Shown here one piece after another: positions 15,148-56,064 of a stretch of DNA of 64,000 nucleotides. The stretch is from a virus. Numbering within the stretch: position 1 is the first letter of the stretch; each line of letters starts with the position of its first letter. The stretch lies in the IMG/VR virus record IMGVR_UViG_3300010396_000048, positions 4,022 to 68,021 of that record. One strand, 5' to 3'. The position numbers were made by a program, and so were the translations under genes. Under the pieces are notes generated by a model. It had not been told where the DNA came from, ran no database searches, and saw only the letters and a program-made list of their open reading frames with translations.

Positions 15148-15339
15148 GTGCCGACTGACGAGGAGATACGGACCGCCCAACTCGCTGCAGCAAAAGCGTC
15201 GCTTGAACTGAGCAAAACGCAAGCCGGTTGCATGTCGATGGCTGGCGGCTGCGGCGCCCTGATTCTCCTCCCTATTGGCATCATCGTTATTCTGATCGCC
15301 GTCGCACTCATCGCCGACGGTTTTGGCCTCTGGAAATGA
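15148..15339 (+). CDS. Small single-TM membrane protein
   Basis: Long hydrophobic C-terminus; ATGA-coupled to the integrase. Confidence 0.7.
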   Translation: MPTDEEIRTAQLAAAKASLELSKTQAGCMSMAGGCGALILLPIGIIVILIAVALIADGFGLWK

Positions 15340-17544: not shown

Positions 17545-18276
17545 CTAGATCGTGCGGGTTGACGGCTTCGCGATGCTCCGCCTTGGGTGGTACGGTTGAA
17601 TCGGCGTCATCTTGTCGGCGAGGCCCTCGGACACCGCCTGGCGTGCGGTAAGATACCAGTCGCGTCGCTCCATTTTGCCGCGCCAATACTCAACCGGCTT
17701 TCCGCTGCGCGCCGAATACAGACCGTTGATGATCGTTTCCCAGGTCCGATTGAATGCAACGCGATCTTCGAGGTCGCAGTTCTTTGATTCAGGCGGAGCG
17801 TCGCTCATACCGTGAACCATCATCGCAGCGAACGGCTCGATTGTTCGAACGTCGCACGCCTGAGCAAGAATCGAACCCATGCTCATGGCGACGCCTTGAA
17901 TGTGGCAGTTCACCTTGCGACCTTGCCGGCGGATTTCTTGCACGGTCGAAAACAATGCGAGCCCCGACTCGACGCTTCCGCCGAGCGACGACAGGTACAC
18001 GAGAATCGGAATGCCGGCTTTGATATTGTGGTGGATCGCCATGAGTTCTTCATGGGAGTCCACACACGCGGCCTCAGTGAAGTCGCCGTGGAAATGAATG
18101 AGCCCGCGTTCCCAGATAGGCTTTGTGTCGAATGCCTCGGTCGGAATGTGCGCGACGAGCTTCGGAACGATGTCATCCGCAACCGTCTTCGCGCGAGGAA
18201 CCCTTAGCGACCGTAGCCGTGCGACGATCTCCTCCTGGAAAGCGTAGGCGATTTCGTGGGTCGTGATTCTCGCCAT
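17545..18276 (-). CDS. clpP: ClpP-like serine protease (S14)
   Basis: SSLGGSV..GLA, G.AMSMGS (Ser), MMVH (His), RDWYLTA.QAV..GL.D (Asp). Confidence 0.85.
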   Translation of the reverse strand: MARITTHEIAYAFQEEIVARLRSLRVPRAKTVADDIVPKLVAHIPTEAFDTKPIWERGLIHFHGDFTEAACVDSHEELMAIHHNIKAGIPILVYLSSLGGSVESGLALFSTVQEIRRQGRKVNCHIQGVAMSMGSILAQACDVRTIEPFAAMMVHGMSDAPPESKNCDLEDRVAFNRTWETIINGLYSARSGKPVEYWRGKMERRDWYLTARQAVSEGLADKMTPIQPYHPRRSIAKPSTRTI

Positions 18277-18363
18277 GGCATCTCCCCATAGTGGGCATCT
18301 CGCGGCCACTCACACCGCTTGCAGACGGTATCAGCGGCGTATCCGATCGGGAACTCGCACGGC

Positions 18364-21387: not shown

Positions 21388-22008
21388 CTAACGCATCAAC
21401 TCGGCCAGGGAGTCAGCAAGCGCGACGTCACGATCGACGTTCGTGGAGAATCCTGGAATGACGCCGGCGTTACTGAATTGGTGCATCTGTGCCGATCGCC
21501 AGCCGTCAGGAAGCGCGAAGTGCCCCGGCTCGCGCGGGTAGTTGGCAACCCAAAGCGTATGGCCGGCAAAGGCGTCCGAGCCGGCGAACCGCGTGGCCCA
21601 CGTATCGGCGTTGGTATAGATGATCGGATCGCATCCGAGCTGCCGCCGAATCTCCGAGTTGAATGCTGCCAGCCGTGTAATGTTTTCCGTGACGCTGCCG
21701 GCGCTGCCGGACTGCTCCTCGACGTCGACCATCGGTCGCAGTTGACCGTATCGGCCGTTCGCCTGAGCAAGGAAGTGCTGCGCTTCGGCCACCGGGTCTT
21801 CGCTGGACAGGAAGAAGCAGTAGGCGCCGAATGGGATGCCCAACCGCTTGCACTCGTCGTGGTTCCGGTTGAAGATCGAGCCGTCGTCGTCGACCGGATT
21901 GTCGCCAAAGCAGACGCGGGAAAAGACGAACTTGACGAGCGGAGATTTCACTGCCAGGTCCCAATCGGGGTTGCCCTGAGCGAACGAAATATCAATGCCG
22001 TAAATCAA
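21388..22008 (-). CDS. Endolysin, GH25 muramidase
   Basis: GIDISFAQG, GAYCF, PMVDVE, IIYT, LWVANY, HQFS..G..PG....VD.D. Confidence 0.92.
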   Translation of the reverse strand: MIYGIDISFAQGNPDWDLAVKSPLVKFVFSRVCFGDNPVDDDGSIFNRNHDECKRLGIPFGAYCFFLSSEDPVAEAQHFLAQANGRYGQLRPMVDVEEQSGSAGSVTENITRLAAFNSEIRRQLGCDPIIYTNADTWATRFAGSDAFAGHTLWVANYPREPGHFALPDGWRSAQMHQFSNAGVIPGFSTNVDRDVALADSLAELMR

Positions 22009-39453: not shown

Positions 39454-40530
39454 TTAGCTCACCACGACCGGACGCTTGGTGACGCAGACTTTCCCATTCC
39501 CGCTGGTGACCGTTAGCGTTACGAGATACGAACCCGCATCGGCATATGCGTAAGTTGGGTTCCGATCGGCACTCGTGCCGGATCCGTCGCCGAAGTCCCA
39601 TGCCCATGACGCTTCGCCGTCGGCGCTTGCATCGGTATAAGTACCGTCTGTGAAGTCGACCGTGTGGCCGCCAACATCTTCGTAGTCGAAGTACGCCAGC
39701 ACGCCGCCGTTCTTCATGTTGATGCTGGCGTCGACGTGCGTGAGGCTCACACCGGCAATGTCAAGCGTTCCACCGCCAAGATTGACGGTCGGTCCAAACC
39801 AGTGGCCGATGAACATCGCCTGGCTCGGCGTGACCGCGCTCATAATCCAACTCGCGTCGGATTCTACCGTTACGTCAACGTCTGAGGCGCCGCTGCCGTC
39901 ATAGCCAGGCTCGACAAAGACCTCATTGCCGTCCGTCGGCAGACCGATCTTCATCACGCCCTTGACGAGGAGCGTGCCGACGCCGGGTCCGAACGACAGC
40001 GAGTTTCCCGCGTCGTCCTGAGCGTCGATAATGAGCGTGCCGCCATCGACGGTGATCGAGTCGCCATCGACGCCGATGTCGAACGCTGGCTCTGCGCCAG
40101 AAGCGGTCGCATTCCCAATGAGGAACGTGCCGCCGTTCTTGACGTAGACCGGCGTGACGCCGCCCATGAGGTTGAACGAGCCGGGGTACGAGTAGTAGAT
40201 GCCGTTTGTATCTACGGTGAAATCGCAGCCTTCGGCTTGGATGTCCAAGCCGGCATCGTCGAACGTAGCCTGAGCGCCGCCGTCCGTATCGACGAAACAG
40301 CGGCCGCTCTCGACGACGAAGATTCCCGAAAAGTTCTTTGCGAGAAAGAATCCGGTCGGCGCGTGAATGACCTCAGCGGTCAGGTCGCCTTCAAGTCCGA
40401 GCGTTGCATCGAGATCTTCGGCCGGTGGTCCAGGAGGAGTCGGCGAAGTCTGTCGTAGGTAGACGTTGGGGCCTTGGACCTGAACGCCCGTGACCTTACG
40501 GTTGGCGACGTTACGGTTGAACTGAATCAT
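39454..40530 (-). CDS. Beta-rich protein with C-terminal PKD domain
   Basis: WAWDFGDG...S...NP.Y.Y...G.Y.VTLTVT; start at ATG 40530 after AGGA. Confidence 0.8.
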   Translation of the reverse strand: MIQFNRNVANRKVTGVQVQGPNVYLRQTSPTPPGPPAEDLDATLGLEGDLTAEVIHAPTGFFLAKNFSGIFVVESGRCFVDTDGGAQATFDDAGLDIQAEGCDFTVDTNGIYYSYPGSFNLMGGVTPVYVKNGGTFLIGNATASGAEPAFDIGVDGDSITVDGGTLIIDAQDDAGNSLSFGPGVGTLLVKGVMKIGLPTDGNEVFVEPGYDGSGASDVDVTVESDASWIMSAVTPSQAMFIGHWFGPTVNLGGGTLDIAGVSLTHVDASINMKNGGVLAYFDYEDVGGHTVDFTDGTYTDASADGEASWAWDFGDGSGTSADRNPTYAYADAGSYLVTLTVTSGNGKVCVTKRPVVVS

Positions 40531-40541
40531 CGGCCATCGTC

Positions 40542-40841
40542 CTAGATCGACTGGCCGACATAGAGCGGACGCAACGGCGTCTGAATGAACGGGCTCGAAC
40601 CATACTGTGCCTGCACCTGCCATTGGTACGTGCCATACTCGCTGGCCGGAAAATCGTTCGGAACGGTCGTGTATGTGGCGTACGTTCCATCGTCCGATGG
40701 CGTCATGTCGAATACTTTGCGCGTATGCGTTACGGGCGAAATCGTCACAAGTTGGACGACAGTCGCTCCAGTGAGGTTGCGGAACCCGGTGCCGACGGTG
40801 GGCGTGAAGGTGATCTCTACGCCGTAGTCGCCTGCCTGCAT
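40542..40841 (-). CDS. Small Ig-like (BppU N-terminal-like) virion protein
   Basis: NLTGAT.......P....G.Y..Y.T...DF....G.Y..Q; AAGGA RBS. Confidence 0.65.
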   Translation of the reverse strand: MQAGDYGVEITFTPTVGTGFRNLTGATVVQLVTISPVTHTRKVFDMTPSDDGTYATYTTVPNDFPASEYGTYQWQVQAQYGSSPFIQTPLRPLYVGQSI

Positions 40842-40852
40842 CGGGTGATTCC

Positions 40853-41518
40853 TTACGCCATGAGCGGAGCGGTGAGATCGACTTGCGCGACGAGTGCGCC
40901 TTCAAAGGCGAGCACGGAAGTGAGGCCACCGCTGAAACTGAGCTGATCGACCAACGGCGCGGACAGTGCGAGCTTAGCTGGTGGCGAACCGCCGCCGGTG
41001 ACTAGACGGCCGACAAACGAAAGCGCTGCCCGGAGAGAGCGGGAGATGAGGCGTGCGATGCCGCCCGCGGGTGCGACGACTGCGGTCAGACGCTTGCGAA
41101 TGGACTTGGCGATCGTAGCGGCCGGAATGATCGCGGCCGTGAACGCCTTACCGATGGCCTTGCCGAGCGCTGAGCTTGCAGCGATTTGCGCTGCCAGGAC
41201 GACACTGTGAACCGTTCCCGTAACCAAAGAGCCAGCCGGGGCGATGACCGCGCTCTGGAGCAATCCTACGGCTTTGGAAAGGGTCGCGGACGATTGAACT
41301 TCAGCCGTCAGAAGCGCAAAGACGGTGCGGGTTAACCCACCGGCCGAGACCGACGCGGCCAGGTTCCTGAAAATCGACCGAACGAGACTTCCGACCGGGG
41401 TGACCGATGCGGCGAGCCGTTTCTCGGTGTTCTTTGCGAGGGAGCCGACCGAGTCGATTTCAGCGGTGAGGTCCTGGATGATGGGGCCCGTATCGTGAGG
41501 CCAAAGGAGTAGTGGCAT
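40853..41518 (-). CDS. Repeat-containing fibre-like virion protein
   Basis: ~20-aa repeats L.A.V...G.L.K.I.K. Confidence 0.65.
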   Translation of the reverse strand: MPLLLWPHDTGPIIQDLTAEIDSVGSLAKNTEKRLAASVTPVGSLVRSIFRNLAASVSAGGLTRTVFALLTAEVQSSATLSKAVGLLQSAVIAPAGSLVTGTVHSVVLAAQIAASSALGKAIGKAFTAAIIPAATIAKSIRKRLTAVVAPAGGIARLISRSLRAALSFVGRLVTGGGSPPAKLALSAPLVDQLSFSGGLTSVLAFEGALVAQVDLTAPLMA

Positions 41519-44663: not shown

Positions 44664-45569
44664 TTAGCCGACGTAGATGTCTCGCTCGGTATCGCCGAGC
44701 GTGGTTTCGTTTTTGACCGCGCCGAGTTGGGCGACCGGCGACGTGAGAATGAGGCCGTACTCGACTAGGAACGAGATACGGGAAATGAAAGCGGAATAGC
44801 TGGATTGCGAGTCGTCGTCGTAGGCTTCGCCGGTCGAGTTTTCAATGTAGAACATCGAGCCATCAGCGAACGGTAGGAACTGTGAGAATACTGTGCCTAT
44901 TCGATCAACGAGCGCTCCACTCAAAAAGGAGCGGCCGTACGGATCGTTCGTCCAAATGGTCGCGACGATCTGTCGTTGGTACCGGCCGACCTCATAGCCG
45001 ACGGTAGCTCCAGGTCCGCCGATATTGCATTCGAGTAAGGACGCGCCGGTCGGAACGACCGTATTGCCTTCTGCTACTGCAGACACGCCGTCGAGGCCGA
45101 GTCCATTGATGGCATCGGCCACGGCTGTAGCGAGGTCCGCCAAAGATTGGTTCGGCGTCGTTTGGACGAATGCGTCACCGTCGCCATTGACGACCGTGTG
45201 CACGTTGTACTGCTGCGTGCCGATTGAGCCCTCGAACGTGATGACACCGCTCGCGAACGAGGCAGTTACGGAAGGCGCTGGGCCTGGCGTATAGAGCGGA
45301 TTGTCGAACGGACTAAACCGCGTGGCGTTCTTTGCTTGGCCTACCGGGAAGACCGAGATTTGCCAGGTGCCAGGCGGATTCGCGAGGATCTTAATGAGTT
45401 CCGGCACGAGCGGTTCGCCAGCGTAGACCTGTCCATCGGTTGAGAGGATGGCGTCAACGGCGCCTGACGGTGTCGGGCACTCGTAGGCCGTGCCGAGAAC
45501 GTTGCTCGACTCAAGCGCTGCCTTGATCGCGTCGCAAAGGGAGCCGCAAACATCATCTATCCGTCCCAC
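44664..45569 (-). CDS. Tail terminator / neck protein
   Basis: Position; Y.G.P....L, ISVFP, R.Q.....TIW, F.VEY pattern. Confidence 0.65.
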   Translation of the reverse strand: MGRIDDVCGSLCDAIKAALESSNVLGTAYECPTPSGAVDAILSTDGQVYAGEPLVPELIKILANPPGTWQISVFPVGQAKNATRFSPFDNPLYTPGPAPSVTASFASGVITFEGSIGTQQYNVHTVVNGDGDAFVQTTPNQSLADLATAVADAINGLGLDGVSAVAEGNTVVPTGASLLECNIGGPGATVGYEVGRYQRQIVATIWTNDPYGRSFLSGALVDRIGTVFSQFLPFADGSMFYIENSTGEAYDDDSQSSYSAFISRISFLVEYGLILTSPVAQLGAVKNETTLGDTERDIYVG

Positions 45570-45915
45570 CTAGCAACTCCCTAACATCTTTGGCTAGTTT
45601 TTGGCGCTTGTACGGTTTCGGTACAGCCTTCATTCCGAGCGCACGGTACGCGGCCACCATGTGCTCAGCGCCGGTCGCCAAGATGACGTTGCCAGCATAG
45701 CCCTTTGCGAGAATCACCTTTGCCGCGTCGTCGCCGCTGGTGGGCTCCATGTTGACATCCAGAATCGCAATGTCCGGGCGTTTCTTGCGGCATAGTTCGA
45801 TCGCTTCGTCGCCGCTTGCGGCCTGTCCAACGACCTCCCAGCCAAGATCGGAAACCACAAGTCCGAAAAGGATACCGCGGCAGATGCCATTGTCGTCGGC
45901 GATGACACAGCGCAC
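45553..45915 (-). CDS. Stand-alone response regulator receiver protein
   Basis: IADD, EVVGQA..G.EA, PDIAILDVNM (phospho-Asp), ILAT, KP; AAGGAG RBS before GTG 45915. Confidence 0.9.
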   Translation of the reverse strand: MRCVIADDNGICRGILFGLVVSDLGWEVVGQAASGDEAIELCRKKRPDIAILDVNMEPTSGDDAAKVILAKGYAGNVILATGAEHMVAAYRALGMKAVPKPYKRQKLAKDVRELLGGTDR

Positions 45916-45925
45916 GGTGGCTCCT

Positions 45926-46705
45926 TTACGTGGCGAGTTTCTCGACAATGCAGATGTAACCGCTCAGGCCCACTTCGACTGTTGAGTGAACCTCCATAAT
46001 CTCATAGCGATCCCCGGTAGCCGCGTTGATGCGGTCTTGCTCGTTCAGCTGCTCGCCAATGACGAGTGGAACGAATACAAGATGGTGCGTCCGGTATTGT
46101 TTCGTCGGAACCTTCGGAATCGTTCCATCGCGCACGCGGTTGAGGGGCTGAATCCCGATTGGAATGGTCGCGCCCATCGTTGCATCCGGCGGGCTCTTGA
46201 ACGTGTAGACTCCGCCAGCGAGCGTGAGATATTCCTCGATCCCTTTGTACGTAGCGCCCCACGCGCGCGACACGACCACGCCTGAGCCGGCGACCTGCTG
46301 CGCTGAGGAGCCTGCCCCGGTGTTTGGCCTCGAGATGAAGCATTTTGTTTCGACCCGCATGAACACCGACTCGCGGGTCGGCCGGTCCTGGGCGAACATC
46401 CAGATGCCGTTGTCGCTCTTGTAGCCCGTTTCAACGAGGATGTCTCCCCGCTCGAGCTTCAGGTTGTCGACTTCGAACGTAAAGGCGAGGAGGTCAAAGG
46501 TGGCATTCTCTAGCGCCTTCTTCGACGACTTTTCCCCGCGCATCTGAAACTTGTTGTAAACGGGCTTGCCGTTCAGGATCGAGCCGTTAGACTTCGGGCC
46601 AAGCCGGTACACCGTGTACGTTTGGCCGAGGACGTTCGCCGCGCGCCCGCGACCATACTGAATCTTGCCGTCGACATACTTGACGCGCGTCGGTCCGGTG
46701 GCCAC
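45926..46705 (-). CDS. Head closure / head-tail joining protein
   Basis: Position after adaptor; D.I....G.RYEI beta-barrel pattern. Confidence 0.6.
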   Translation of the reverse strand: MATGPTRVKYVDGKIQYGRGRAANVLGQTYTVYRLGPKSNGSILNGKPVYNKFQMRGEKSSKKALENATFDLLAFTFEVDNLKLERGDILVETGYKSDNGIWMFAQDRPTRESVFMRVETKCFISRPNTGAGSSAQQVAGSGVVVSRAWGATYKGIEEYLTLAGGVYTFKSPPDATMGATIPIGIQPLNRVRDGTIPKVPTKQYRTHHLVFVPLVIGEQLNEQDRINAATGDRYEIMEVHSTVEVGLSGYICIVEKLAT

Positions 46706-47938: not shown

Positions 47939-49438
47939 TTACGTCGCGCTGAAGGTCCAGATGCCGACCGCACGCGCGCGCCGACCGGCCGTGCCGGTCA
48001 GAACGACGCTCGAGCGAGTGACGTCCGTCGGGCACACCATATCGCGGATGGTCATCCAGTCGATGTGGATGCGCCGGCCCTGACGATCGGCATATGCCGG
48101 CATCAGGATCTGCACGATACCGCGGTCGAGTGCGACGTAGCCCGGGTTCAGACCGTTCGTGGCCCAATCCTCGATGCCGGCGTACCACGCATCGATCAGG
48201 GCGCCTTGACCCGTCACGATCGTCAAGTACGCAAAGCCGGAACCGCCATACGGTGCCAGCGCGATGCGCGGAGCGTTGGTATTCGGCAGGAAGGTAACGC
48301 CGACGTACTCGGAGACTTTACCGCGCTGGTAAATCTGCGACAGACCCAACGTTTGGTTGGCCTGTTTGAAGTCGTCGTCGTTGTACAGCGAACGCATGAT
48401 CGACGGAGCGATGTGCGCGATGTACGTGCCTTCGTCGTCGCCAGCGTAGTTCCGAGCGAACGGAACTGCGTTGTTCTGCAAGCCGCCGACCGCATCCAGC
48501 AGGAGTGCCTGGGTCAGGCCCTCGGTAACCTGCGAGAAGTGGACGACGCCGCCAGAGAACAACTGCGTCGGGGCATCGCCAGCGACAATGACGTCACCGG
48601 ATTGCACCGAGTAGCTGCCTTCTACGTCGGCGAGCGTGAGGGTTCCGGAGATTCCGTTGCCGCGAGCAGCCGTGGGAGCGCCGGCCGAACCGTACATCGA
48701 GCCGTACAGGACGTAGTCCGATACGTTAGTGACGTCCGGTGTGGCAAGGGTCACGTTGGCCGTGATCGGGCCGGCGAAGGACGCCGACTTCTTATAGATC
48801 AAAACCGGCAACGGGGTGCTGCCCGAAACGGGCGTGAGGACGCCATTCGTCGAGCCGGCGCCGACGGTGATGACCGTCGACAGGCCGCGGATGTCGTCGA
48901 CCTGTACTGTCGCGCCCGAGGCGTTGGCCATCGCGACGGTATACGACGCGCCGTAGCCAGCGATGTACGTGTCGCGAGCGAGCAAGTCAACCGATTGGTA
49001 TGCCTGCTTGAACGAGACCGTGACGTCGTGCGTGAAGCGATCGACGATACCGAAGTTGGTGCCGACCAAGTCGAGGTCGATACCGTCCGTCAGCTCGAAG
49101 GGAGCGAACGTATACTGCTCGATGTCGAAGTCGGATGGGGTGACGCCGTCGTCCGGTGGCGTTTGAGCTGCGGTCGGATCGGCCGCGACAACTACGGGCG
49201 CCTTGAGTCCCGGACGGGTGCGGGTGATCGTCGTGCCGCGGTTCTTCTCGAAGACTTTCTCTTCGAATGACTCGCCGTCGACGGCCTCCCAATACCCGTT
49301 GTTGGATTCGAGGAAGTCCTCGAACTCGGTCTCCAGGTAGCCCTGCTGGATCATGGGCTGCAACTGCGCCGGGAACTGCGCGATGTCGAAGATCGCAAGC
49401 ACGTACTCGGGCAGGGCAACGCCGTGCGAATTACGCAT
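47939..49438 (-). CDS. Major capsid protein
   Basis: 499 aa after scaffold; G.T.T.TR.G, Y...I.P.....L..D..F, G.V..Y.GV.F HK97-fold patterns. Confidence 0.85.
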   Translation of the reverse strand: MRNSHGVALPEYVLAIFDIAQFPAQLQPMIQQGYLETEFEDFLESNNGYWEAVDGESFEEKVFEKNRGTTITRTRPGLKAPVVVAADPTAAQTPPDDGVTPSDFDIEQYTFAPFELTDGIDLDLVGTNFGIVDRFTHDVTVSFKQAYQSVDLLARDTYIAGYGASYTVAMANASGATVQVDDIRGLSTVITVGAGSTNGVLTPVSGSTPLPVLIYKKSASFAGPITANVTLATPDVTNVSDYVLYGSMYGSAGAPTAARGNGISGTLTLADVEGSYSVQSGDVIVAGDAPTQLFSGGVVHFSQVTEGLTQALLLDAVGGLQNNAVPFARNYAGDDEGTYIAHIAPSIMRSLYNDDDFKQANQTLGLSQIYQRGKVSEYVGVTFLPNTNAPRIALAPYGGSGFAYLTIVTGQGALIDAWYAGIEDWATNGLNPGYVALDRGIVQILMPAYADRQGRRIHIDWMTIRDMVCPTDVTRSSVVLTGTAGRRARAVGIWTFSAT

Positions 49439-49494
49439 GGTGTGAACCTTTGCAAGGGGAGTGAAAGTAGAAATGCGCGCCGAGCGTTAAATCG

Positions 49495-49625
49495 ACGGCG
49501 TCAATACGCAGGGCGTTAGCCCGCTTCGGTGAGCGTCTCGCTCGCTTCGTTGGGCATCTCGCCCATTTGCGTGCGGGCATCGCGCCCGCCGTTCTCTCTC
49601 GTACACCTTGCAGCGCTCACGCTGC
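49495..49625 (-). ncRNA. Candidate structured cis-RNA (multibranch, GNRA-type pentaloop hairpins) in the capsid 5' leader
   Basis: Five short hairpins plus two enclosing helices identified by eye in the scaffold-capsid intergenic region. Confidence 0.5.
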
Positions 49626-49636
49626 GGCCACACGCC

Positions 49637-50542
49637 TTAGCGGCGCAAAGTGGCCTTGTAGTCCTTGAGCGCTTGCGCGCGCTGCTTGCGGTCGAGACCG
49701 CGCAGATCTGGCAGACCGAACGTGTTGCCGCCAGTACCGGAGCCGTTTGCGGATCCCCCAGCTGGCGATGCTCCACCACTCGTGGAGTTCCGCCGCGTGC
49801 CCGAGCCGTTTGCACTGCCCTGGCCGCCAGCGGCATTCCCGCCGGCCGCTCCATTGTGTCCGACACCCGCGCTCGAGCCAGAGCCCGAACCGTCGCTTGA
49901 GCCAGCGCCAGCACCCGAGCCTCCGTCACCGGAACTCGAGCCGTCGCCAGCACCGCTGCCATCTCCACTGGCGGCCGCCGCTTTGAACAGAGCCGCGTGG
50001 GACGACTTGAACGCGGCTACCGCCTCGCTCAAACCTTTGATGTCGCCCGTCTTTGAATCGATGCTGATCTTGCCCTCGTTGTCGGAGAGCATGAGATTGG
50101 TTACGGTCGGATCGAGTACTCCCGCTTCCACCATCATGGCACGCGCTTCGCCGTGGATGGCGCGACGCTCCATGGTGGAAACACGGCCATTCAGCGCGCC
50201 GTTCTCCTTCTTTAGTTCGCGGGTCTCGTGGCGACGTTGTGCGGCTTCGCGACTGACCTCTTCGAACCGCCGATTGGCCTCTTCGATCGAAGCAAACCGC
50301 CCGTCGTTGCCGCGCGCGTCGTGCCGTGTTCCGCCGCGATCACCGTCACTTCCCGACCTATCGCCAGGCGCACCGGCGTCGCCGCCGGCCGCGCCGCTGG
50401 ATGCGCTTCCTGCGCTCGAGCCGGCGTCTGAACCGGTTGAACCGTTAGCATCGCTCTGGCTCGAACCGCCGCTAGCATCGCCACCTTGCTCGCCATCGAA
50501 CAAAGCGAGAACATAGTCAGGCAGTTCCTTATTGAATTTCAC
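49637..50542 (-). CDS. Capsid scaffold protein
   Basis: Gly/Ser-rich ends, central coiled coil (EAAQRR.E.REL), between portal and capsid. Confidence 0.8.
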   Translation of the reverse strand: MKFNKELPDYVLALFDGEQGGDASGGSSQSDANGSTGSDAGSSAGSASSGAAGGDAGAPGDRSGSDGDRGGTRHDARGNDGRFASIEEANRRFEEVSREAAQRRHETRELKKENGALNGRVSTMERRAIHGEARAMMVEAGVLDPTVTNLMLSDNEGKISIDSKTGDIKGLSEAVAAFKSSHAALFKAAAASGDGSGAGDGSSSGDGGSGAGAGSSDGSGSGSSAGVGHNGAAGGNAAGGQGSANGSGTRRNSTSGGASPAGGSANGSGTGGNTFGLPDLRGLDRKQRAQALKDYKATLRR

Positions 50543-52330
50543 TTAGGCGGGTACTCCTTCTTTCGCTGGAGGTGTTACCTTGTTGAGCGCTTCCTGACGC
50601 GTGACTTCTTGCGCGACGTCGTTCGCCTGGTCGGCTTCGATTCGCTCACGCTCGTCGGATACGTTTTGCACGTCGTACATCGCGCCGACGTTGGCAATGC
50701 CGGTCTCTTGCGAGATGAAGTTGTTGTCCTTAGAAATCGCCGCGGCTTGAACTTCGAACAACTTCTCCTGACCGTGCAACTCGTAGTAGTCTGGCCATTG
50801 CCATTCGAGGTTCGCTTCAGCGTCGGGCTTCACGGAGGAGGCGTCTTGCAATGACGGAAGCGCGACGTCGACCTTGTCCGCCATACGCATAGCCAGGCGT
50901 AGGAGGCGCGAACCGGCGTGTTCACCGCATGTTTGCCGCAAAATACCGCAGAGAACGAGTTGGGCGAAGTTTAGGAGCTTCATCGCGGCCGCCGAAAGCG
51001 GGCCAGAGGCTCCGGTTTTGGAGTCGGGGGTCACGCGGGACATCGCGCCGGCTTCGCGCGCGAGATCGCGCAGCGTTTCCACGTACGTATCGATCGCGAC
51101 CTCGAGCCCCTGGCCCGTGATCTCGACAAACTTTAAGTCGCCGCCGGCCGAGGACTCAAGGACATCGGATGCCGTTCCACCCATGGCAACGTCCGTGCCG
51201 AATCCGAACTTGCCTGCAGCCGCTTCCGGGCCAGCGGCCAAAATACGCGCCATCTGTGGATCGCCGGCGTAGTCCAATGCGCGGCCGGTCTGCGACACCG
51301 TGCGGTCGATTCGGAATTGATAGTCGATGACAGCGTCGAAGATGCACGCGCCGTCTGGATACAGGTCGTCCGCGTCGATCGGGAAGGGCCGCACCCACTG
51401 CCCAGGCACCTCGCCGAGCTCATGGTCGAACGTTCTTCCTGTATCGAGGATCCAACTCGACTGTTTCCAATCGCGACGCTCGTAGATGAAGCGAGGGACG
51501 GGTTCGTACCATGTCTCGGCCTTAGTGTCGAGCGTCACGCGCAAGACCCAATCCTGCTTCGCGTTCATCCCGACTTGAGACTGAGCATATATCCGGGCAG
51601 CGTTCTTCCATGCACGGTTGCCCTTGGCGTTCCACTGCTGAACGATCGCGTCGACGTCGTAGCCCTGTGCACGTAGCGAGTCCTCGGAAATGAAATACTC
51701 CCGATTTACTGAGATCAGGTCATCGGGCGACTGCCGATCGAAGACCGGCGTGCATTGTTCGGCCGGCCACAATTCGAAAAAATACTTGCCCGGACCGTCT
51801 GGCTCCCGACGCGATGTCGGTTCCCCGCTTTCGGGATCGGGATCTCCGGGAACGTCTTTCTGCTTGCCGAGAACGCGCAATACGACGAATGCCGAGCCAA
51901 CCGAGCCCTGCCAGGTCGCGTCCATCATCGTCAGCCAGAATTGGGTATCCTTGATGAAGGCGGCAATCCAATCGGTCGTAGGCGTCTCGCGCCTCGCCGT
52001 CGACTGTCCGCCGCTGCCTTGCGATTCCCTGGGAGTCTTCTCATCCTTTGAAATGACGAGCGGTCGATGGTCCTCGCCGAAAAGCAACCCCACGACGTCG
52101 CGTACGAGCTCGATCGGGAGCGGATACTGCGTAGCGGGGCGCCGGTTATCAAGCAGGATACGCTTGCCGCTGAACCCGTCGCCGTCACGCTCCTGCGAAA
52201 ACGCATTGGCGATATGAGCATAAAGTTTACCCTTGAGCGCGCGACGATATGCATCGAGCCTTTTCTGTCGCTCCGTCCACCGAGCGCACTGTGTGCGAGC
52301 GATTGCGGCGCGGTATGCCTGGAAGTCGAT
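50543..52330 (-). CDS. Portal protein (SPP1 gp6-like), probable ATC start
   Basis: After terminase; SA.AMKL, W..Y, ISQET motifs; frame open 79 codons upstream of the first GTG, to an ATC 7 nt after AAAGGAG. Confidence 0.85.
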   Translation of the reverse strand: MDFQAYRAAIARTQCARWTERQKRLDAYRRALKGKLYAHIANAFSQERDGDGFSGKRILLDNRRPATQYPLPIELVRDVVGLLFGEDHRPLVISKDEKTPRESQGSGGQSTARRETPTTDWIAAFIKDTQFWLTMMDATWQGSVGSAFVVLRVLGKQKDVPGDPDPESGEPTSRREPDGPGKYFFELWPAEQCTPVFDRQSPDDLISVNREYFISEDSLRAQGYDVDAIVQQWNAKGNRAWKNAARIYAQSQVGMNAKQDWVLRVTLDTKAETWYEPVPRFIYERRDWKQSSWILDTGRTFDHELGEVPGQWVRPFPIDADDLYPDGACIFDAVIDYQFRIDRTVSQTGRALDYAGDPQMARILAAGPEAAAGKFGFGTDVAMGGTASDVLESSAGGDLKFVEITGQGLEVAIDTYVETLRDLAREAGAMSRVTPDSKTGASGPLSAAAMKLLNFAQLVLCGILRQTCGEHAGSRLLRLAMRMADKVDVALPSLQDASSVKPDAEANLEWQWPDYYELHGQEKLFEVQAAAISKDNNFISQETGIANVGAMYDVQNVSDERERIEADQANDVAQEVTRQEALNKVTPPAKEGVPA

Positions 52331-52349
52331 GACTCGGCTCCTTTCGGGC

Positions 52350-52853
52350 TTACATGCTCAGGGCAGGACTGCGTCCCGGGACGACGGCGTCGGCCGTATC
52401 GGCCGAGCGAACGCGCCGATTTCGGCGCAAAGGTGGTGACCCGCGAACTGGGTCGATGCGCTGCGCGGCGCCCGTGATCGGGACGACGTTGTCCGCTTCC
52501 GGGGGCGCGGCTTCTTCTTCTGTCGGCTGGATCTCGCCGTCGCCGACCATCCGCGAGACATCCGGAGCGACTACGCTATTCGGGTCGAGTGCCGCCGCCA
52601 TTTGAGCGCGCCTTGGCCTCTCGCCGACGGTCTCAATAACCTGTGCAGGCTTAGGGTGGCTATTCATCGCGACAGCCGCCGCAAGACACAGTGCGTTCTT
52701 TAGGTCCGTTTCCGAGGAGAACTCCAAACGCGTGCCGCAAGCCAATGCCTGCATAGCGACAACCGATTCCCCGGTCTCGTAGTCGTACCGTTCGGTGCGG
52801 TAGACTTGAAGCGGTATCCTCTCTTTGATCACAGAGAGATATTTACTTGCCAT
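52350..52853 (-). CDS. Hypothetical protein between terminase and portal
   Basis: 167 aa with low-complexity C-terminus. Confidence 0.65.
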   Translation of the reverse strand: MASKYLSVIKERIPLQVYRTERYDYETGESVVAMQALACGTRLEFSSETDLKNALCLAAAVAMNSHPKPAQVIETVGERPRRAQMAAALDPNSVVAPDVSRMVGDGEIQPTEEEAAPPEADNVVPITGAAQRIDPVRGSPPLRRNRRVRSADTADAVVPGRSPALSM

Positions 52854-52889
52854 TTCCCCGAAACAAGTCGCCAAGCGAACAGTCCTTTC

Positions 52890-54299
52890 TTAGCGAATCG
52901 TGCTGACGGACGCGAGATGCCGCTCAGCGATCGGGTATTCATACACGATCGGATACGACCACGCGTCCGCAAGGTGCGTCACGAGGCGGACGGGCTTGCC
53001 GTCTTTGATCTTCGGCACCTCGACGATCGATGTGCCAGGCCTGAAGTACATGCGCTCGAGGTCGAGCGGCAGATTCACACAACGTTCGTGGATCACGACG
53101 CCGAGGTTGCCGTTGGCGTCCTCGAGCATCCGGTTTCCAGACTTGTACCGCAGCGTGCGATCGGGGTTTGCCGCTGGCACCTTTGCCGTTCCAGAGAAGC
53201 CGAGGTCGGCCAGCGCCATCCGCAGACTCTCCCAATCGGATAGGCCGGTCTGCCGATTGCCCTGATAGCCAGAGGCATCGCCGTACAGCAGGATGCCGTT
53301 GCGTTTCGCGATGCGCGCGAGATCCCCGCGGTTCAGCAACTCCTTCGCTACCAGGTCGATCGTCGAATCGCGAATATAGAACTCATCGAGAACATACATC
53401 ACGTCCTCTTGGTATCCATTCACGCGAACGCGGCGCCATTGGAACAGCACTGAGCAGAGCGGGTCGATGTTGAAGTCTTGCCCGAGGCACAGCGGCAATG
53501 TCGGGTCCGGCCGTAAGGCCGGCAGACCGCGGCGCCTTGCTTCGGTTTCGCCGAGAACATGTCGGCCACGGTTGAACCGACGCCAGACGCGACCGCGCTG
53601 AATGTCGCCAAACTTCCCGCCGAGTTCAATATCAGCGACTTCAGGGTCGTAGTTCCGACGGAGACTTTGAATGTAAGCCGCAGGCAAAAACGGGTTGTCT
53701 TCCGTGGCCGCCGAGATCAGGCGCACCGCTGGCTTGCCGGTTTCCGGCAGAGGCTTCGTGCACTTGTCAACGAGCCAATGATCCATCGTGTGGGGCGGAT
53801 TAGCCGTGATCCGAAGATTCAGCGGCATATTCGGGTAAAGTCGACGCTGGCGATCGGTGCCACGACGTCTGGCCAGTACAAAATGGTACGCCATCTCGGA
53901 CCATGCTTGCGCCTCATCGATCCACACGTAGCAGAGCTCGAGAGACTTGAAGTCGAGCGGGTTATCGACCGACCAGACGGCCAACCAGCAATCGAAGGTC
54001 GAGAGGTAGACCTTGTGTTCCGAGCGGATCTTGTCGACGTACTGAACGCCCCAATGATCGCAACGCTCGAAGAACGAGCCCATCGTGCCCTGCGACAGCT
54101 GCGGATAGGTGTTCGAGAAGATGCCGATGCCGGGCTTCTCGCGTGTCCCGCACCGCGGATATGTGGCCGCCATCTTCAGGACGTCATCGGACGCGACGAC
54201 TGTCTTGCCCGTCCCGACTCCGCCGACGAAGGCAACCTCGGCTTCCGGCGCGTTGTAAAAGTCATCTTGCGCCGGCAAGTGCTCAAGAATTACGTTCAT
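52890..54299 (-). CDS. terL: Terminase large subunit
   Basis: GGVGTGKT (Walker A), WIDEAQ (Walker B), TANP, DNPFLP, GQDFN, YGDASG, HLADA..Y. Confidence 0.95.
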   Translation of the reverse strand: MNVILEHLPAQDDFYNAPEAEVAFVGGVGTGKTVVASDDVLKMAATYPRCGTREKPGIGIFSNTYPQLSQGTMGSFFERCDHWGVQYVDKIRSEHKVYLSTFDCWLAVWSVDNPLDFKSLELCYVWIDEAQAWSEMAYHFVLARRRGTDRQRRLYPNMPLNLRITANPPHTMDHWLVDKCTKPLPETGKPAVRLISAATEDNPFLPAAYIQSLRRNYDPEVADIELGGKFGDIQRGRVWRRFNRGRHVLGETEARRRGLPALRPDPTLPLCLGQDFNIDPLCSVLFQWRRVRVNGYQEDVMYVLDEFYIRDSTIDLVAKELLNRGDLARIAKRNGILLYGDASGYQGNRQTGLSDWESLRMALADLGFSGTAKVPAANPDRTLRYKSGNRMLEDANGNLGVVIHERCVNLPLDLERMYFRPGTSIVEVPKIKDGKPVRLVTHLADAWSYPIVYEYPIAERHLASVSTIR

Positions 54300-54661
54300 C
54301 TGGTGGTGCTCGGCGGTGGTGGCGCCAGCACGCGGTTCGCGCGCAATGGCTTCGCCAGGCGATCGTCATCGCGCATATTTGCTCGCCGCCCCGCTTCGAT
54401 CACGTCGGTAATGTTCACACGCACCGCAACATAGGCGACCGTCCTGCCGGTTGGCATGTCGGGGTTGAAGTCGTCGGGGCTGTCTTCGTGAAACACGCGT
54501 CCAACGACGCACCCGATGATGCCTTCCCAGAGGTACACCTGGTGAGACATCTGCCGCTGCGGCTCAAGATCGAACACGACGTGCGTGTGGCCAAGCTCCC
54601 GCTGCTTCAGCGCATAGGCGAATGCCGCGCGGAGCGAATCAAGGCTTCCGTTTACGACCAT
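54296..54661 (-). CDS. Hypothetical protein
   Basis: ATGA-coupled to terL; start uncertain. Confidence 0.6.
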   Translation of the reverse strand: MVVNGSLDSLRAAFAYALKQRELGHTHVVFDLEPQRQMSHQVYLWEGIIGCVVGRVFHEDSPDDFNPDMPTGRTVAYVAVRVNITDVIEAGRRANMRDDDRLAKPLRANRVLAPPPPSTTR

Positions 54662-55064
54662 CGTGTACTTCGAGTGATCCCGGCGCCGTGCGCTCGATTC
54701 CGGCCATCGAAACCACCAATCCAAAGATGCAACGGTCCGATGCCGGTCCGGGGATAAAATACACGCGATAGAGCGGTTCGGTGTGCTCGCCGCGCTCGAG
54801 CACGACCTCTTCCACGCACTCGAACTGCTTGCCGATCGCGGCCATCGTCTGCGCCGCCGCTGAGATCGCTATGCAAGCGGCACGATTCTTCGAGTGGCCG
54901 ATGATGGTGACTTCCGAATCGCCGATGAGGCAACGCGTCTTAAACTTCGCCGGATCAGTCGGCTCCTGGTAGTTGTCCTCGACGAACGATCGAACCGGAA
55001 TACTGCCAGCTTCGGGAATCGGCGGCTCAGGATTTCCCGCCGGCGTGTTTTCTTGCAACGTCAT
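54639..55064 (-). CDS. prp: Prp-like (ribosomal-processing/YsxB family) cysteine protease
   Basis: VTIIGH...AACIAISAAAQT resembles Prp GHA...VCA.VS; C-terminal LVVSM..IE...P..LEV resembles Prp LVSL..IE..Y...I. Confidence 0.65.
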   Translation of the reverse strand: MTLQENTPAGNPEPPIPEAGSIPVRSFVEDNYQEPTDPAKFKTRCLIGDSEVTIIGHSKNRAACIAISAAAQTMAAIGKQFECVEEVVLERGEHTEPLYRVYFIPGPASDRCIFGLVVSMAGIERTAPGSLEVHDGRKRKP

Positions 55065-55346: not shown

Positions 55347-55661
55347 TTACGGATCGATGGCTTGGCTTTGAAGCTCTGGCTCGCCGGCCGACTGCAACGC
55401 GTACCCGCCGAAAGGCGGCGATACCGAACCGTCCGAACTGCCGGCGACGACCGCGGCGTAAATCGCCTCTTTGGCGTTGTCGACGATCGCCTGAGCGATC
55501 TCGGGAGCCTTGCGGGGGTCTAAACTGATGATTACCTCGTCCGGTAATCCGTCCTCATGCGCGTACGTGACCTTGAGCACGAGCACATCCGGTGCCCATC
55601 CGACCTCGAACTTCTCGGGCGGTCGCAGCATCGTCACCTTTGTATCGATCGGCTTATCCAA
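55347..55661 (-). CDS. Hypothetical protein
   Basis: GAGGAGG upstream of TTG, 104 aa. Confidence 0.65.
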   Translation of the reverse strand: MDKPIDTKVTMLRPPEKFEVGWAPDVLVLKVTYAHEDGLPDEVIISLDPRKAPEIAQAIVDNAKEAIYAAVVAGSSDGSVSPPFGGYALQSAGEPELQSQAIDP

Positions 55662-56064
55662 CCGCGCGACCCTCCTCGTCGACGTTTACCCTTGATGGCT
55701 CGAGGCGTCGCTGCGTAATCGTCAGCGTACCATCGGGCTCGACGACCTGCTCTTTGGCACCGTAGTCCGCTCGGTAGCGACGCTCCAAGAACCAGGTCGC
55801 CGTCGAGCTACCCTTACCACTGGCCAATGCAATCTTTGTCAGATTTTGCACGGCCTTCGCGCGCGCGCACGTCACGGCTTTACGGAAGCTGAGATACGGT
55901 TCTATGCCGCGGTCGCCCTTACGCATCCAATCGTGGAAGGCCATCTCGGAAACGCCATTTGCTTCGGCCGCATATTTCTCGGGGACCGAAATCTCTAGCG
56001 CCTCACAAATTGCCTTTTGCACCGATGGCGTCAGACTGGTCGGCGTTCCCGGCTTTCTGCCCAT
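55654..56064 (-). CDS. terS: Terminase small subunit-like HTH protein
   Basis: GR...LTP.....IC.AL......AA...GVS..AF..W, A.WFLERR...DYG; upstream of terL. Confidence 0.7.
   Translation of the reverse strand: MGRKPGTPTSLTPSVQKAICEALEISVPEKYAAEANGVSEMAFHDWMRKGDRGIEPYLSFRKAVTCARAKAVQNLTKIALASGKGSSTATWFLERRYRADYGAKEQVVEPDGTLTITQRRLEPSRVNVDEEGRAVG

What the first reader, a model, noticed from the sequence alone, without database searches (positions are those of the whole stretch)
49385..55064. Phage-encoded Prp-like protease with a matching new leader motif on scaffold and capsid
Seen: scaffold begins MKFNKELPDYVLALF-DG and capsid begins MRNSHGVALPEYVLAIF-DI, so two otherwise unrelated proteins share LP[DE]YVLA[LI]F-D. 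Between terS and terL, 54639..55064 has the Prp-like GH...C-x-A-x-S dyad with a shortened His-Cys loop, and no protease lies between portal and capsid. Established: Prp cleaves after Phe in the L27 leader (LNLQFF-A); Staphylococcus phage 80alpha scaffold and capsid carry that motif, and pneumococcal phage Cp-1 encodes its own Prp. Inference: a self-contained head-maturation system with a different recognition sequence, likely orthogonal to host L27 processing, in a probably non-Firmicute phage; cleavage predicted at F-D.
Basis: partly seen in the sequence, partly recalled or inferred. Interest (0 to 1): 0.85.

Follow-up and report, generated by a model that had tools for sequence, protein, structure and literature searches.

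The report
Phage short-loop Prp protease with tagged head proteins
This phage carries its own small relative of the bacterial protease Prp, and its scaffold and coat proteins both begin with a matching tag ending in phenylalanine that this enzyme most likely cuts off, a new variant of a known scheme that nobody has tested at the bench.

Summary
Scaffold (49637-50542, minus) and capsid (47939-49438, minus) share an N-terminal tag, LP[DE]YVLA[LI]F-D. It occurs only twice in six frames (0 of 200 shuffles reach 2).

The 141-aa ORF at 54639-55064 has a Prp fold. By VIA-align the four Prp representatives score Z 11.9-14.6 and the next chain 7.6. His57 and Cys64 are invariant in 23 relatives. The His-x6-Cys spacing matches Thermotoga TM1457. 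No member reaches Pfam's Prp cut-off.

One capsid family shows three states:
- no tag and no Prp, in proteobacterial phages;
- an L27-type tag (F[ND]LQLF) with a canonical mini-Prp (L091);
- this tag with the short-loop Prp.

Tag and short-loop Prp occur together in 5 of 6 informative lineages and in 0 of 24 tagless loci. Scaffold and capsid tags co-vary within genomes. The Phe is the only invariant residue among the first 30.

The host is probably Eremiobacterota. One prophage sits in such a chromosome, which has its own canonical Prp and long L27 (MFRFDLQLF-A).

Cleavage is inferred, not shown, and orthogonality to the host system is untested. A ClpP-like protease at 17545-18309 is a weak rival. 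This scan has already met phage Prp-plus-tag systems on other DNA, so this is a new variant of a known kind.

The parts
54639..55064 (-). Short-loop Prp-fold cysteine protease gene (141 aa). Core residues about 42-136, putative dyad His57/Cys64, Ser68 four residues after the Cys. The start ATG overlaps the stop of the upstream ORF (ATGA).
   Evidence: ORF and sequence. AlphaFold2 pLDDT 85.6, order strand-strand-helix-strand-strand-helix-strand. Foldseek top 14 hits are all Prp structures. VIA-align: 1s12 Z 14.6, 2g0i 12.6, 2idl 12.5, 4peo 11.9, next 7.6. H57, C64, A66, Q72, D135, R137 invariant in 23 sequences. Family profile hits TM1457 at E 1.9e-4 with GH...C in register.
54296..54661 (-). 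Conserved small partner ORF that overlaps the 3' end of the protease gene (about 121 aa from ATG 54661; the longest frame starts at TTG 54724). Function unknown.
   Evidence: Homologues directly follow the Prp-like gene in L002 (E 6e-24) and L005 (E 6.5e-12). An ORF of 137 aa sits in the same position in L044, by position only. Only weak Pfam hits below cut-off.
49637..50542 (-). Scaffolding protein gene (301 aa). The tag is residues 1-15, ending ELPDYVLALF. Predicted cut F15|D16 (codons 50500-50498 | 50497-50495).
   Evidence: PF06810 E 7.2e-8 (33 bits, cut-off 35) and phrog_194. Motif position. The tag is kept on scaffolds of relatives.
47939..49438 (-). Major capsid protein gene (499 aa). 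The tag is residues 1-17, ending ALPEYVLAIF. Predicted cut F17|D18 (codons 49390-49388 | 49387-49385). Predicted mature start DIAQFPAQ.
   Evidence: phrog_1357 E 3.1e-8. 7 cultured-phage capsids match from residue 16-22 onward. Tagless relatives begin M[GASP]I[QS]NFPAALQ. F17 is the only invariant residue among the first 30 in 31 tagged capsids.
55654..56064 (-). Small terminase subunit (context).
   Evidence: phrog_4102 E 7.5e-16.
52890..54299 (-). Large terminase subunit (context).
   Evidence: PF03237 E 3.4e-12 and phrog_2 E 2e-31.
50543..52093 (-). Portal protein (context). The true start probably lies further upstream.
   Evidence: phrog_64 E 4.5e-6 and PF05133 E 1.8e-4 (below cut-off). 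Portals of relatives are 561-583 aa with about 60-80 more N-terminal residues.
17545..18309 (-). ClpP-family serine protease gene outside the head module. It is the rival candidate for head maturation.
   Evidence: PF00574, 64.6 bits. phrog_94 'head maturation protease' E 1.6e-27. Neighbours are a metallophosphoesterase, a serine recombinase and a GH25 lysozyme. No PF00574 match in the records of 5 relatives.

Best explanation
The 141-aa protein is a phage-encoded cysteine protease of the Prp fold, of the short-loop kind (His-x6-Cys, as in Thermotoga TM1457). It acts as the head-maturation leader peptidase of this phage. It recognises the N-terminal tag shared by scaffold and capsid: an aromatic residue at P6, hydrophobic residues at P4 and P2, and Phe at P1. 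It cuts after the Phe (scaffold F15|D16, capsid F17|D18).

Shown here: the fold, the invariant His and Cys, the shared tag, and the joint occurrence and joint change of tag and protease across relatives.

Inferred: catalysis, the exact cut site, when cutting happens during assembly, and whether cutting or only binding of the tag matters.
For: Fold:
- Foldseek against PDB: the 14 hits with E <= 0.001 are all Prp structures (7kld, 1s12, 2g0j, 2idl, 2g0i, 7jvs, 4peo; E 1.8e-5 to 4e-4). The next hit has E 1.6e-2.
- VIA-align against 48,161 chains: the four Prp representatives lead with Z 11.9-14.6 (1s12: 93 of 94 residues, rmsd 2.3). The next chain has Z 7.6.
- The secondary-structure order is the one a review gives for family C108.

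Active site:
- H57 and C64 are invariant in 23 sequences. The residue four after the Cys is Ser or Thr in 22 of 23.
- The family profile matches TM1457 at E 1.9e-4, with GH and C in register.

Tag:
- Two hits in the window against 0.015 expected.
- It is on both proteins in 10 of 10 tagged lineages read.
- Scaffold-to-capsid tag identity is 6.9 of 10 within a genome and 4.1 of 10 between genomes. 3 of 20,000 permutations reach this.
- F17 is the only invariant residue in the first 30 of 31 tagged capsids.
- The junction after the Phe varies in length (F-DIA, F-SGDIA, F-STDIA, F-ADIA, F-DDALA).

Natural comparison:
- Of 120 capsid N-termini read, 59 carry this kind of tag and 59 carry none (2 of these have six extra residues). 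One is truncated in the database and one carries an L27-type tag.
- Tagless capsids begin M[GASP]I[QS]NFPA, which lines up with D18-IAQFPA.

Linkage:
- The Prp-like gene is present in 5 of 6 tagged lineages in which the DNA upstream of terL is held (window, L002, L005, L014, L044; missing in L001).
- It is present in 0 of 24 tagless loci.
- It has no tblastn match in 50,697 phage records.

Co-variation of protease and tag: L091, a capsid relative, has F[ND]LQLF tags on scaffold and capsid. It has a canonical mini-Prp (PF04327, 56 bits) between portal and scaffold, and no short-loop Prp.

Not a host housekeeping gene: the family profile hits 2 of 201 genomes of the probable host phylum. One is the prophage. 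The other is a weak hit with an internal stop and no capsid nearby.
Against: - No cleavage data exist.
- By sequence the protein is not a Pfam Prp. The window protein has no hit at E <= 1. 0 of 23 members reach the cut-off and 1 of 23 has E 0.049. hhalign against six canonical Prps gives only 14% probability (E 0.0019), although it aligns the Cys.
- L001 keeps the tag on both proteins but shows no Prp-like gene in its 18-kb record (24% complete by CheckV).
- The probable host has a canonical Prp and an L27 leader with the same hydrophobic stripe, so a host enzyme could cut the tag.
- The genome also holds a ClpP-like protease that PHROGs label as head maturation protease.
- In phage 80alpha, cutting of capsid and scaffold is dispensable, while the scaffold's N-terminus is needed for assembly (passages of PMC5744158). 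The tag may therefore matter more as a binding handle than as a cut site.
Confidence: 0.7

Rival explanations
1. The host's own canonical Prp removes the tags, as Staphylococcus aureus Prp does for phage 80alpha. The phage Prp-like protein then has another task, such as acting on a host protein, serving as a back-up, or holding the tags as a chaperone.
For: - The chromosome that carries prophage L044 has a canonical Prp (PF04327, 40.7 bits) beside the L21 gene, and a long L27 starting MFRFDLQLF-ASKK.
- Canonical Prp is found in 34 of 41 genomes of that phylum. 27 of 30 L27 N-termini read are long.
- The tag shares aromatic P6, Leu P4, aliphatic P2 and Phe P1 with that leader (my comparison).
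Against: - The tag lacks the conserved [DN]-L-Q of the L27 leader and has Asp, Ser, Gly, Ala or Thr rather than Ala at P1'.
- A relative that uses the L27-type tag (L091) carries a canonical-type Prp. The clade with the altered tag carries the short-loop type.
- The short-loop gene travels with the tag in 5 of 6 informative lineages.
Confidence: 0.12
2. The shared N-terminal segment is an assembly or folding handle that is not removed. The Prp-like protein binds it without cutting, or is unrelated to it.
For: In 80alpha, uncleavable capsid and scaffold give viable phage, but a pre-cut scaffold gives no capsids (passages of PMC5744158). A review reports that Prp holds L27 tightly after cutting and may act as a chaperone (passages of PMC9405229).
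Against: His57 and Cys64 are invariant in all 23 relatives. The one invariant tag residue is the Phe at the junction, followed by a linker of variable length. Tagless relatives start exactly at the predicted mature end.
Confidence: 0.1
3. The ClpP-like protease at 17545-18309 is the head maturation protease, and the Prp-like protein is a bystander.
For: PF00574, 64.6 bits. The best PHROG is 'head maturation protease', phrog_94, E 1.6e-27.
Against: It lies about 30 kb from the head genes, beside a metallophosphoesterase, a serine recombinase and a lysozyme. No PF00574 match was found in 5 of 5 relatives' records searched. These include the 80.8-kb record (83% complete) that keeps the tags and the Prp-like gene. 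Prohead proteases of that family usually sit between portal and capsid (recalled, not tested).
Confidence: 0.05

Closest known systems
Thermotoga maritima TM1457 (PDB 1s12), a short-loop Prp of a bacterium without long L27
   Same: Best structural match (Z 14.6, 93 of 94 residues, rmsd 2.3). It is the only PDB sequence hit of the family profile (E 1.9e-4). The His-x6-Cys spacing is the same.
   Different: TM1457 is a bacterial protein whose substrate is not known, according to the review passages read (PMC9405229). Here the gene is phage-borne, has about 40 extra N-terminal residues, and sits in a genome with two obvious candidate substrates. Sequence identity is 17%.
Staphylococcus aureus Prp (YsxB; PF04327; MEROPS C108) acting on L27 and on phage 80alpha scaffold and capsid
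   Same: Same fold (7kld, 4peo). Same logic of one short N-terminal tag ending in Phe on scaffold and capsid, cut between Phe and the next residue (passages of PMC5744158 and PMC9405229).
   Different: There the protease is a host gene between the L21 and L27 genes, has an 11-residue His-Cys loop, and the tag copies the host L27 leader (LNLQFF-A). Here the protease is phage-encoded, has a 6-residue loop, fails the Pfam cut-off, and the tag reads LPxYxLA[IL]F-D.
Phage-encoded canonical or mini Prp with L27-type tags
   Same: The phage carries its own Prp-fold enzyme and tags both scaffold and capsid. L091 even shares the capsid family (34% identity to the window's capsid for P0100).
   Different: In L091 the enzyme is recognised by Pfam (56 bits), has the long loop, is 78 aa, and lies between portal and scaffold. 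Its tags are F[ND]LQLF-T. Here the enzyme is a separate sequence family of 21 clusters among 1.84 billion representatives. It lies upstream of terL with a conserved partner ORF, and the tag differs.
Capsid-trimming cysteine protease of phage Cp-1 (the other member of MEROPS clan CR)
   Same: A phage cysteine protease that removes an N-terminal extension from the capsid protein (review passage). A protein of the Cp-1-like Streptococcus phage SOCP is a weak structural match (E 1.8e-3).
   Different: About 40 residues are said to be removed there. No sequence or tag comparison was made here.

Membership tests
Prp / Peptidase_Prp (PF04327, MEROPS C108) | Fold with the order strand-strand-helix-strand-strand-helix-strand | tested here: met
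   DSSP order of the models: E43-47, E51-55, H61-80, E84-90, E98-103, H107-126, E131-135. The Prp structures are the top matches by Foldseek and by VIA-align.
Prp / Peptidase_Prp (PF04327, MEROPS C108) | His-Cys dyad (Gly-His after strand 2, Cys at the start of helix 1) with Ser four residues after the Cys | tested here: met
   H57 and C64 are invariant and G56 nearly so. Ser or Thr stands at C+4 in 22 of 23 sequences. They are in register with GH...C of TM1457. hhalign aligns C64 with the Cys of six canonical Prps.
Prp / Peptidase_Prp (PF04327, MEROPS C108) | Sequence score above Pfam's gathering cut-off (27 bits) | tested here: not met
   The window protein has no hit at E <= 1. 0 of 23 family members reach the cut-off and 1 of 23 has E 0.049. 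The L044 member scores 18.7 bits.
L27-cleaving Prp subgroup | Long flexible loop of about 11 residues between His and Cys | tested here: not met
   There are six residues between H57 and C64 in all 23 sequences. Canonical Prps of the probable host phylum have 11 (H22, C34).
L27-cleaving Prp subgroup | Gene lies between the genes for L21 and L27 | tested here: not met
   The gene lies between terS and terL of a virus record that has no L27 gene.
Prp / Peptidase_Prp (PF04327, MEROPS C108) | Cuts a leader after Phe; activity is lost on changing the Cys | not testable with these tools
   This needs an enzyme assay.
80alpha-type tagged head proteins | The same short N-terminal tag on scaffold and capsid, ending in Phe | tested here: met
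   Found in 10 of 10 tagged lineages read.
80alpha-type tagged head proteins | The tag copies the host's L27 leader | tested here: not met
   L27 of the probable host starts MFRFDLQLF-A, whereas the tag is LP[DE]YVLA[LI]F-D. Only the P6, P4, P2 and P1 character is shared. The host assignment itself is only probable.
ClpP/S14-type prohead protease (for ORF 17545-18309) | Encoded in the head module and kept among relatives with the same head genes | tested here: not met
   It lies about 30 kb from the portal. No match was found in 5 of 5 relatives' records.

The most novel reading that the evidence does not exclude
Short-loop Prps as a class are leader peptidases for tags of the form aromatic-x-hydrophobic-x-hydrophobic-Phe. 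That class includes the bacterial ones whose substrates are unknown. In cells infected by this phage, two Prp systems would then run side by side without cross-talk: the host's long-loop enzyme on L27, and the phage's short-loop enzyme on scaffold and capsid. The pair would be a natural orthogonal tag-and-protease set, and would give a first substrate handle on the short-loop branch.
Probability: 0.25. Interest if true: 0.7.

Novelty: new variant of a known kind. Interest (0 to 1): 0.55.

Why it matters
According to the review passages I read, short-loop Prps have no known substrate. This family comes with two clear candidate substrates, so the short-loop branch becomes testable with a simple co-expression assay.

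One capsid family shows three states: no tag; an L27-type tag with a canonical mini-Prp; an altered tag with a short-loop Prp. That is a natural experiment on how head-protein tags and their proteases are gained and change together.

It also points to Eremiobacterota, a phylum with few studied phages, as the host. That phylum has long L27 plus Prp, and it is not on the list of such phyla in the review passages I read.

The general scheme is known from 80alpha, and this scan has met it on other DNA. What is new is the enzyme family, the loop type and the tag.

Tried and rejected
- Single-sequence searches of the protease against Pfam, PHROGs and PDB gave nothing. Only the 23-sequence profile reached TM1457.
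- The word-indexed protein search found one relative only. The exhaustive search found 21.
- The pattern scan of viral contigs with the two-sequence alignment found nothing. The first genome-contig scan with the protease profile also found nothing. The metagenome scan added only a duplicate, a 2.6-kb fragment and one weak hit.
- Complex prediction (two copies of the protease core plus capsid residues 1-45, both with alignments) returned 'no answer', score 0.02. Its controls were not run. It counts neither for nor against binding.
- PF04586 (HK97-type protease) has no match in the record.
- The second hit of the protease profile in the host phylum (G122, E 6e-4) has an internal stop and no capsid relative within 10 kb either side. 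I set it aside as unrelated.
- I considered that L011 lacks the protease. Its contig starts 493 bases before terL, so it says nothing. L013, L016 and L026 are too short to judge. L004, L006 and L012 duplicate L005, L003 and L042 duplicate L002, and L015 duplicates L014. These were counted once.
- Literature. Searches (Prp, L27, phage, capsid, scaffolding, prohead protease; Eremiobacterota, prophage) listed no paper whose title or abstract describes a phage-encoded short-loop Prp or this tag. I read passages only of PMC9405229, PMC5744158, PMC9261936 and bioRxiv 10.64898/2026.08.10.744006. Wall et al. 2015 (PMC4418427) is not held. It may discuss phage-encoded Prp relatives, and I know it only through citations. 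Supplements were not opened.
- Our-findings look-ups by sequence found nothing for the protease or the capsid outside this window.

Full report
WHAT IS THERE

The window is bases 4022-68021 of a 68,021-base virus record that CheckV rates 69% complete. On the minus strand lies a head and packaging module:
- terS, 55654-56064
- two small ORFs
- the 141-aa candidate, 54639-55064
- an overlapping small ORF
- terL, 52890-54299
- a 174-aa ORF
- portal, 50543-52093
- scaffold, 49637-50542
- capsid, 47939-49438

The names rest on PHROG and Pfam hits, some of them weak:
- terS: phrog_4102, E 7.5e-16
- terL: phrog_2, E 2e-31
- portal: phrog_64, E 4.5e-6
- scaffold: PF06810, E 7.2e-8, just under its cut-off
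- capsid: phrog_1357, E 3.1e-8

A loose pattern for the shared motif hits twice in all six frames of the window, at these two N-termini. 200 shuffles gave a mean of 0.015 hits and none reached 2.

THE PROTEASE CANDIDATE

Alone, the sequence hits nothing in Pfam (E <= 1), PHROGs or PDB. An exhaustive search of 1.84 billion representatives found 21 relatives.

In the 23-sequence alignment, H57, C64, A66, Q72, D135 and R137 are invariant. G56, S58, N60, A62, A63 and T73 are nearly so. His and Cys are always six residues apart.

AlphaFold2 with this alignment gives pLDDT 85.6 and the order strand-strand-helix-strand-strand-helix-strand. A review gives this order for the Prp family.

- Foldseek on the first, shallower model returned only Prp structures among its 14 significant hits, then a gap to E 1.6e-2.
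- VIA-align against 48,161 representative chains put the four Prp representatives on top (1s12 Z 14.6, 2g0i 12.6, 2idl 12.5, 4peo 11.9) and the next chain at 7.6.
- The family profile finds TM1457 (1s12) at E 1.9e-4, with Gly-His and Cys aligned without a gap between them.
- Against viral models the best matches are 'YsxB-like protein' and 'Cysteine protease' of uncultured phages.

By sequence, however, the family stands outside Pfam's Prp model. 0 of 23 members reach the cut-off and 1 of 23 has E 0.049. hhalign against six canonical Prps gives 14% probability, though it pairs the two Cys residues.

It is therefore a Prp-fold protein of the short-loop kind, and a separate sequence family. The review passages say that short loops mark Prps of bacteria without long L27, whose substrates are unknown.

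THE TAG ACROSS RELATIVES

I read the N-termini of the 120 best capsid relatives:
- 59 carry an extension that ends in Phe just before the conserved core.
- 59 have no extension and begin M[GASP]I[QS]NFPAALQ. Two of these have six extra residues.
- 1 is truncated in the database. Its tag is visible in locus L044.
- 1 (P0100) carries an L27-like extension.

In 31 tagged capsids, F17 is the only invariant residue among the first 30. What follows the Phe varies in length: F-DIA, F-SGDIA, F-AGDIA, F-STDIA, F-TDIA, F-ADIA, F-DDALA. This is what one expects if the bond after the Phe is the one that matters.

Cultured relatives (Komagataeibacter phage phiKX1 and Ralstonia phage Hyacinthe) start at MAIANFPAS and MPISNFPAA. 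That is exactly where the window's capsid would start after a cut at F17|D18. Their scaffolds have no tag.

In all 10 tagged lineages where both N-termini can be read, the scaffold carries the tag too: window, L001, L002, L005, L011, L013, L014, L016, L026 and L044.

Scaffold and capsid tags change together. Examples:
- L014: WVPSFNMYLF and WVPTFNPYLF
- L044: AALPFAVALF and AALPFVVALF

Over nine of these lineages (L016 was left out because my pattern missed its scaffold), identity is 6.9 of 10 within a genome and 4.1 of 10 between genomes. 3 of 20,000 permutations reach this. Related lineages inflate this test somewhat.

LINKAGE OF TAG AND PROTEASE

An HMM of the protease family was run over all fetched loci.
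- Among tagged lineages it hits the window, L002, L005, L014 and L044.
- It hits none of the 24 tagless loci. Twelve of these hold a full 10 kb upstream of the capsid.
- The protease has no tblastn match in 50,697 phage records.
- L001 is the exception. Its tags are present, but there is no protease gene in the 18-kb record, which is 24% complete.
- L011 starts 493 bases before terL, and L013, L016 and L026 are short, so they are uninformative.

The score is therefore 5 of 6 informative tagged lineages against 0 of 24 tagless loci. Most of this probably reflects one gain in one clade.

The strongest single result came late. L091 is a relative of the capsid with the L27-like tag.
- It has AVFNLQLF-T on its scaffold (PF06810, 58.6 bits) and AKFDLQLF-T on its capsid.
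- Between portal and scaffold it has a 78-aa canonical Prp (PF04327, 56 bits, matching model positions 1-57 of 90).
- It has no short-loop Prp.

So within one capsid family the kind of tag follows the kind of protease.

HOST

- L044 is a prophage in a 3.56-Mb chromosome titled Candidatus Eremiobacteraeota. Its order is terS, short-loop Prp (GHAWNRDAC; profile E 2.3e-10; PF04327 18.7 bits), partner ORF, terL, portal, tagged scaffold, tagged capsid.
- A 64%-identical capsid (P0053) is labelled as from the same phylum, but it sits on a 3-kb contig.
- Tagless relatives sit in Luteibacter, Ralstonia and Dyella genomes.

The Eremiobacterota chromosome has a canonical Prp beside the L21 gene, seemingly frameshifted in this assembly. 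Its L27 starts MFRFDLQLF-ASKK. In its phylum, 34 of 41 genomes have PF04327 above cut-off. 27 of 30 L27 N-termini read are long. The three short ones belong to genomes in which no Prp was found.

The short-loop family is found in 2 of 201 genomes of the phylum, one of them a doubtful hit. It is therefore phage cargo.

The host assignment for the window's own phage remains probable, not shown.

HOW IT MOST LIKELY WORKS

By analogy with S. aureus Prp, which cuts between Phe and Ala of L27 and of the 80alpha scaffold and capsid (passages), the phage enzyme would bind the tag as an extended strand and cut after the Phe.

The tag Y-V-L-A-I-F and the probable host's L27 leader F-D-L-Q-L-F share aromatic P6, Leu P4, aliphatic P2 and Phe P1. 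They differ at P5, P3 and P1'. I read this as a variant of the Prp recognition pattern rather than a new one. It leaves open whether the host and phage enzymes cross-react.

The role of the invariant Asp135 and Arg137, and of the conserved partner ORF, is unknown.

RIVALS

The rivals are host Prp doing the cutting, an uncut assembly handle, and the ClpP-like protease at 17545-18309.

The ClpP-like gene scores well as 'head maturation protease' in PHROGs. But it lies among an integrase, a phosphoesterase and a lysozyme. It is also missing from 5 of 5 relatives' records searched, including the 83%-complete record that keeps tags and the short-loop Prp.

COMPARISON AND NOVELTY

The scheme of a Prp plus tags on scaffold and capsid is established for 80alpha with a host enzyme. 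Phage-borne Prp-like proteins are annotated in virome data.

This scan has already reported two such systems on other DNA: half-size Prps with WFxLxRH tags in Streptomyces-type phages, and gut phages with LQLFA tags (I did not check those).

New here are the short-loop enzyme family invisible to Pfam, its place upstream of terL with a partner ORF, the altered tag, the probable Eremiobacterota host, and the three-state series within one capsid family.

I found no paper on this among the listings of searches. Wall et al. 2015 could not be read.

VERDICT

This is a new variant of a known kind, with interest 0.55.

Noticed in passing
window 17545-18309 (-), with 18364-19803 (-), 15228-16829 (+), 21388-22008 (-): A ClpP-family protease (PF00574, 64.6 bits; phrog_94) sits beside a metallophosphoesterase (phrog_20266, E 4.9e-42), a large serine recombinase (PF00239) and a GH25 lysozyme. 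It is absent from the records of five relatives. Its role is unknown.
   Followed up: partly
window 45553-45948 (-); L001 13919-14296; L002 10179-10526: A stand-alone response-regulator receiver domain (PF00072, E 3.5e-14) lies inside the structural module. Similar small ORFs beginning M(I/R)VVIADD lie at the same place in L001 and L002.
   Followed up: partly
window 54296-54724 (-); L002 1718-2083; L005 10377-10781; L044 4911-5321: A conserved ORF of 121-142 aa always follows and overlaps the short-loop Prp gene. It has no family assignment and could be a partner or regulator of the protease.
   Followed up: partly
L091 8497-8730 (+), 8565-9443 (+), 9532 onward (+): A related phage has a 78-aa Prp covering only the first 57 of 90 Pfam model positions, between portal and scaffold. 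It has F[ND]LQLF-T tags on scaffold and capsid. This looks like the half-size Prp type that this scan reported in other phages.
   Followed up: partly
L011 494-2848 (+): The large terminase of this relative is 784 aa, against 469 aa in the window. It has a long insertion that begins with Cys and ends in His-Asn-Cys, which looks like an intein.
   Followed up: no
window 52094-52345 (-): The portal frame from the first GTG gives 516 aa, but portals of relatives are 561-583 aa with an extra N-terminal stretch. The true start or an upstream frame break was not resolved.
   Followed up: no
L048, L051 (genome G006); L054-L088: The phylum of the Eremiobacteraeota MAG has canonical Prp in 34 of 41 genomes and long L27 in 27 of 30 read. 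The phylum is not on the list of long-L27 phyla in the review passages read. In G006 the Prp gene follows the L21 gene, but the L27 gene lies elsewhere beside obg. The Prp frame appears broken in that assembly.
   Followed up: partly
L044 5344-6836 and 9838-11446: In the prophage of the MAG chromosome, terL and the capsid gene are each split over two frames. These are either assembly errors or a decaying prophage.
   Followed up: no
window 39454-40929 (-): A 491-aa protein in the tail region ends in a PKD domain (PF18911, E 1.6e-13).
   Followed up: no
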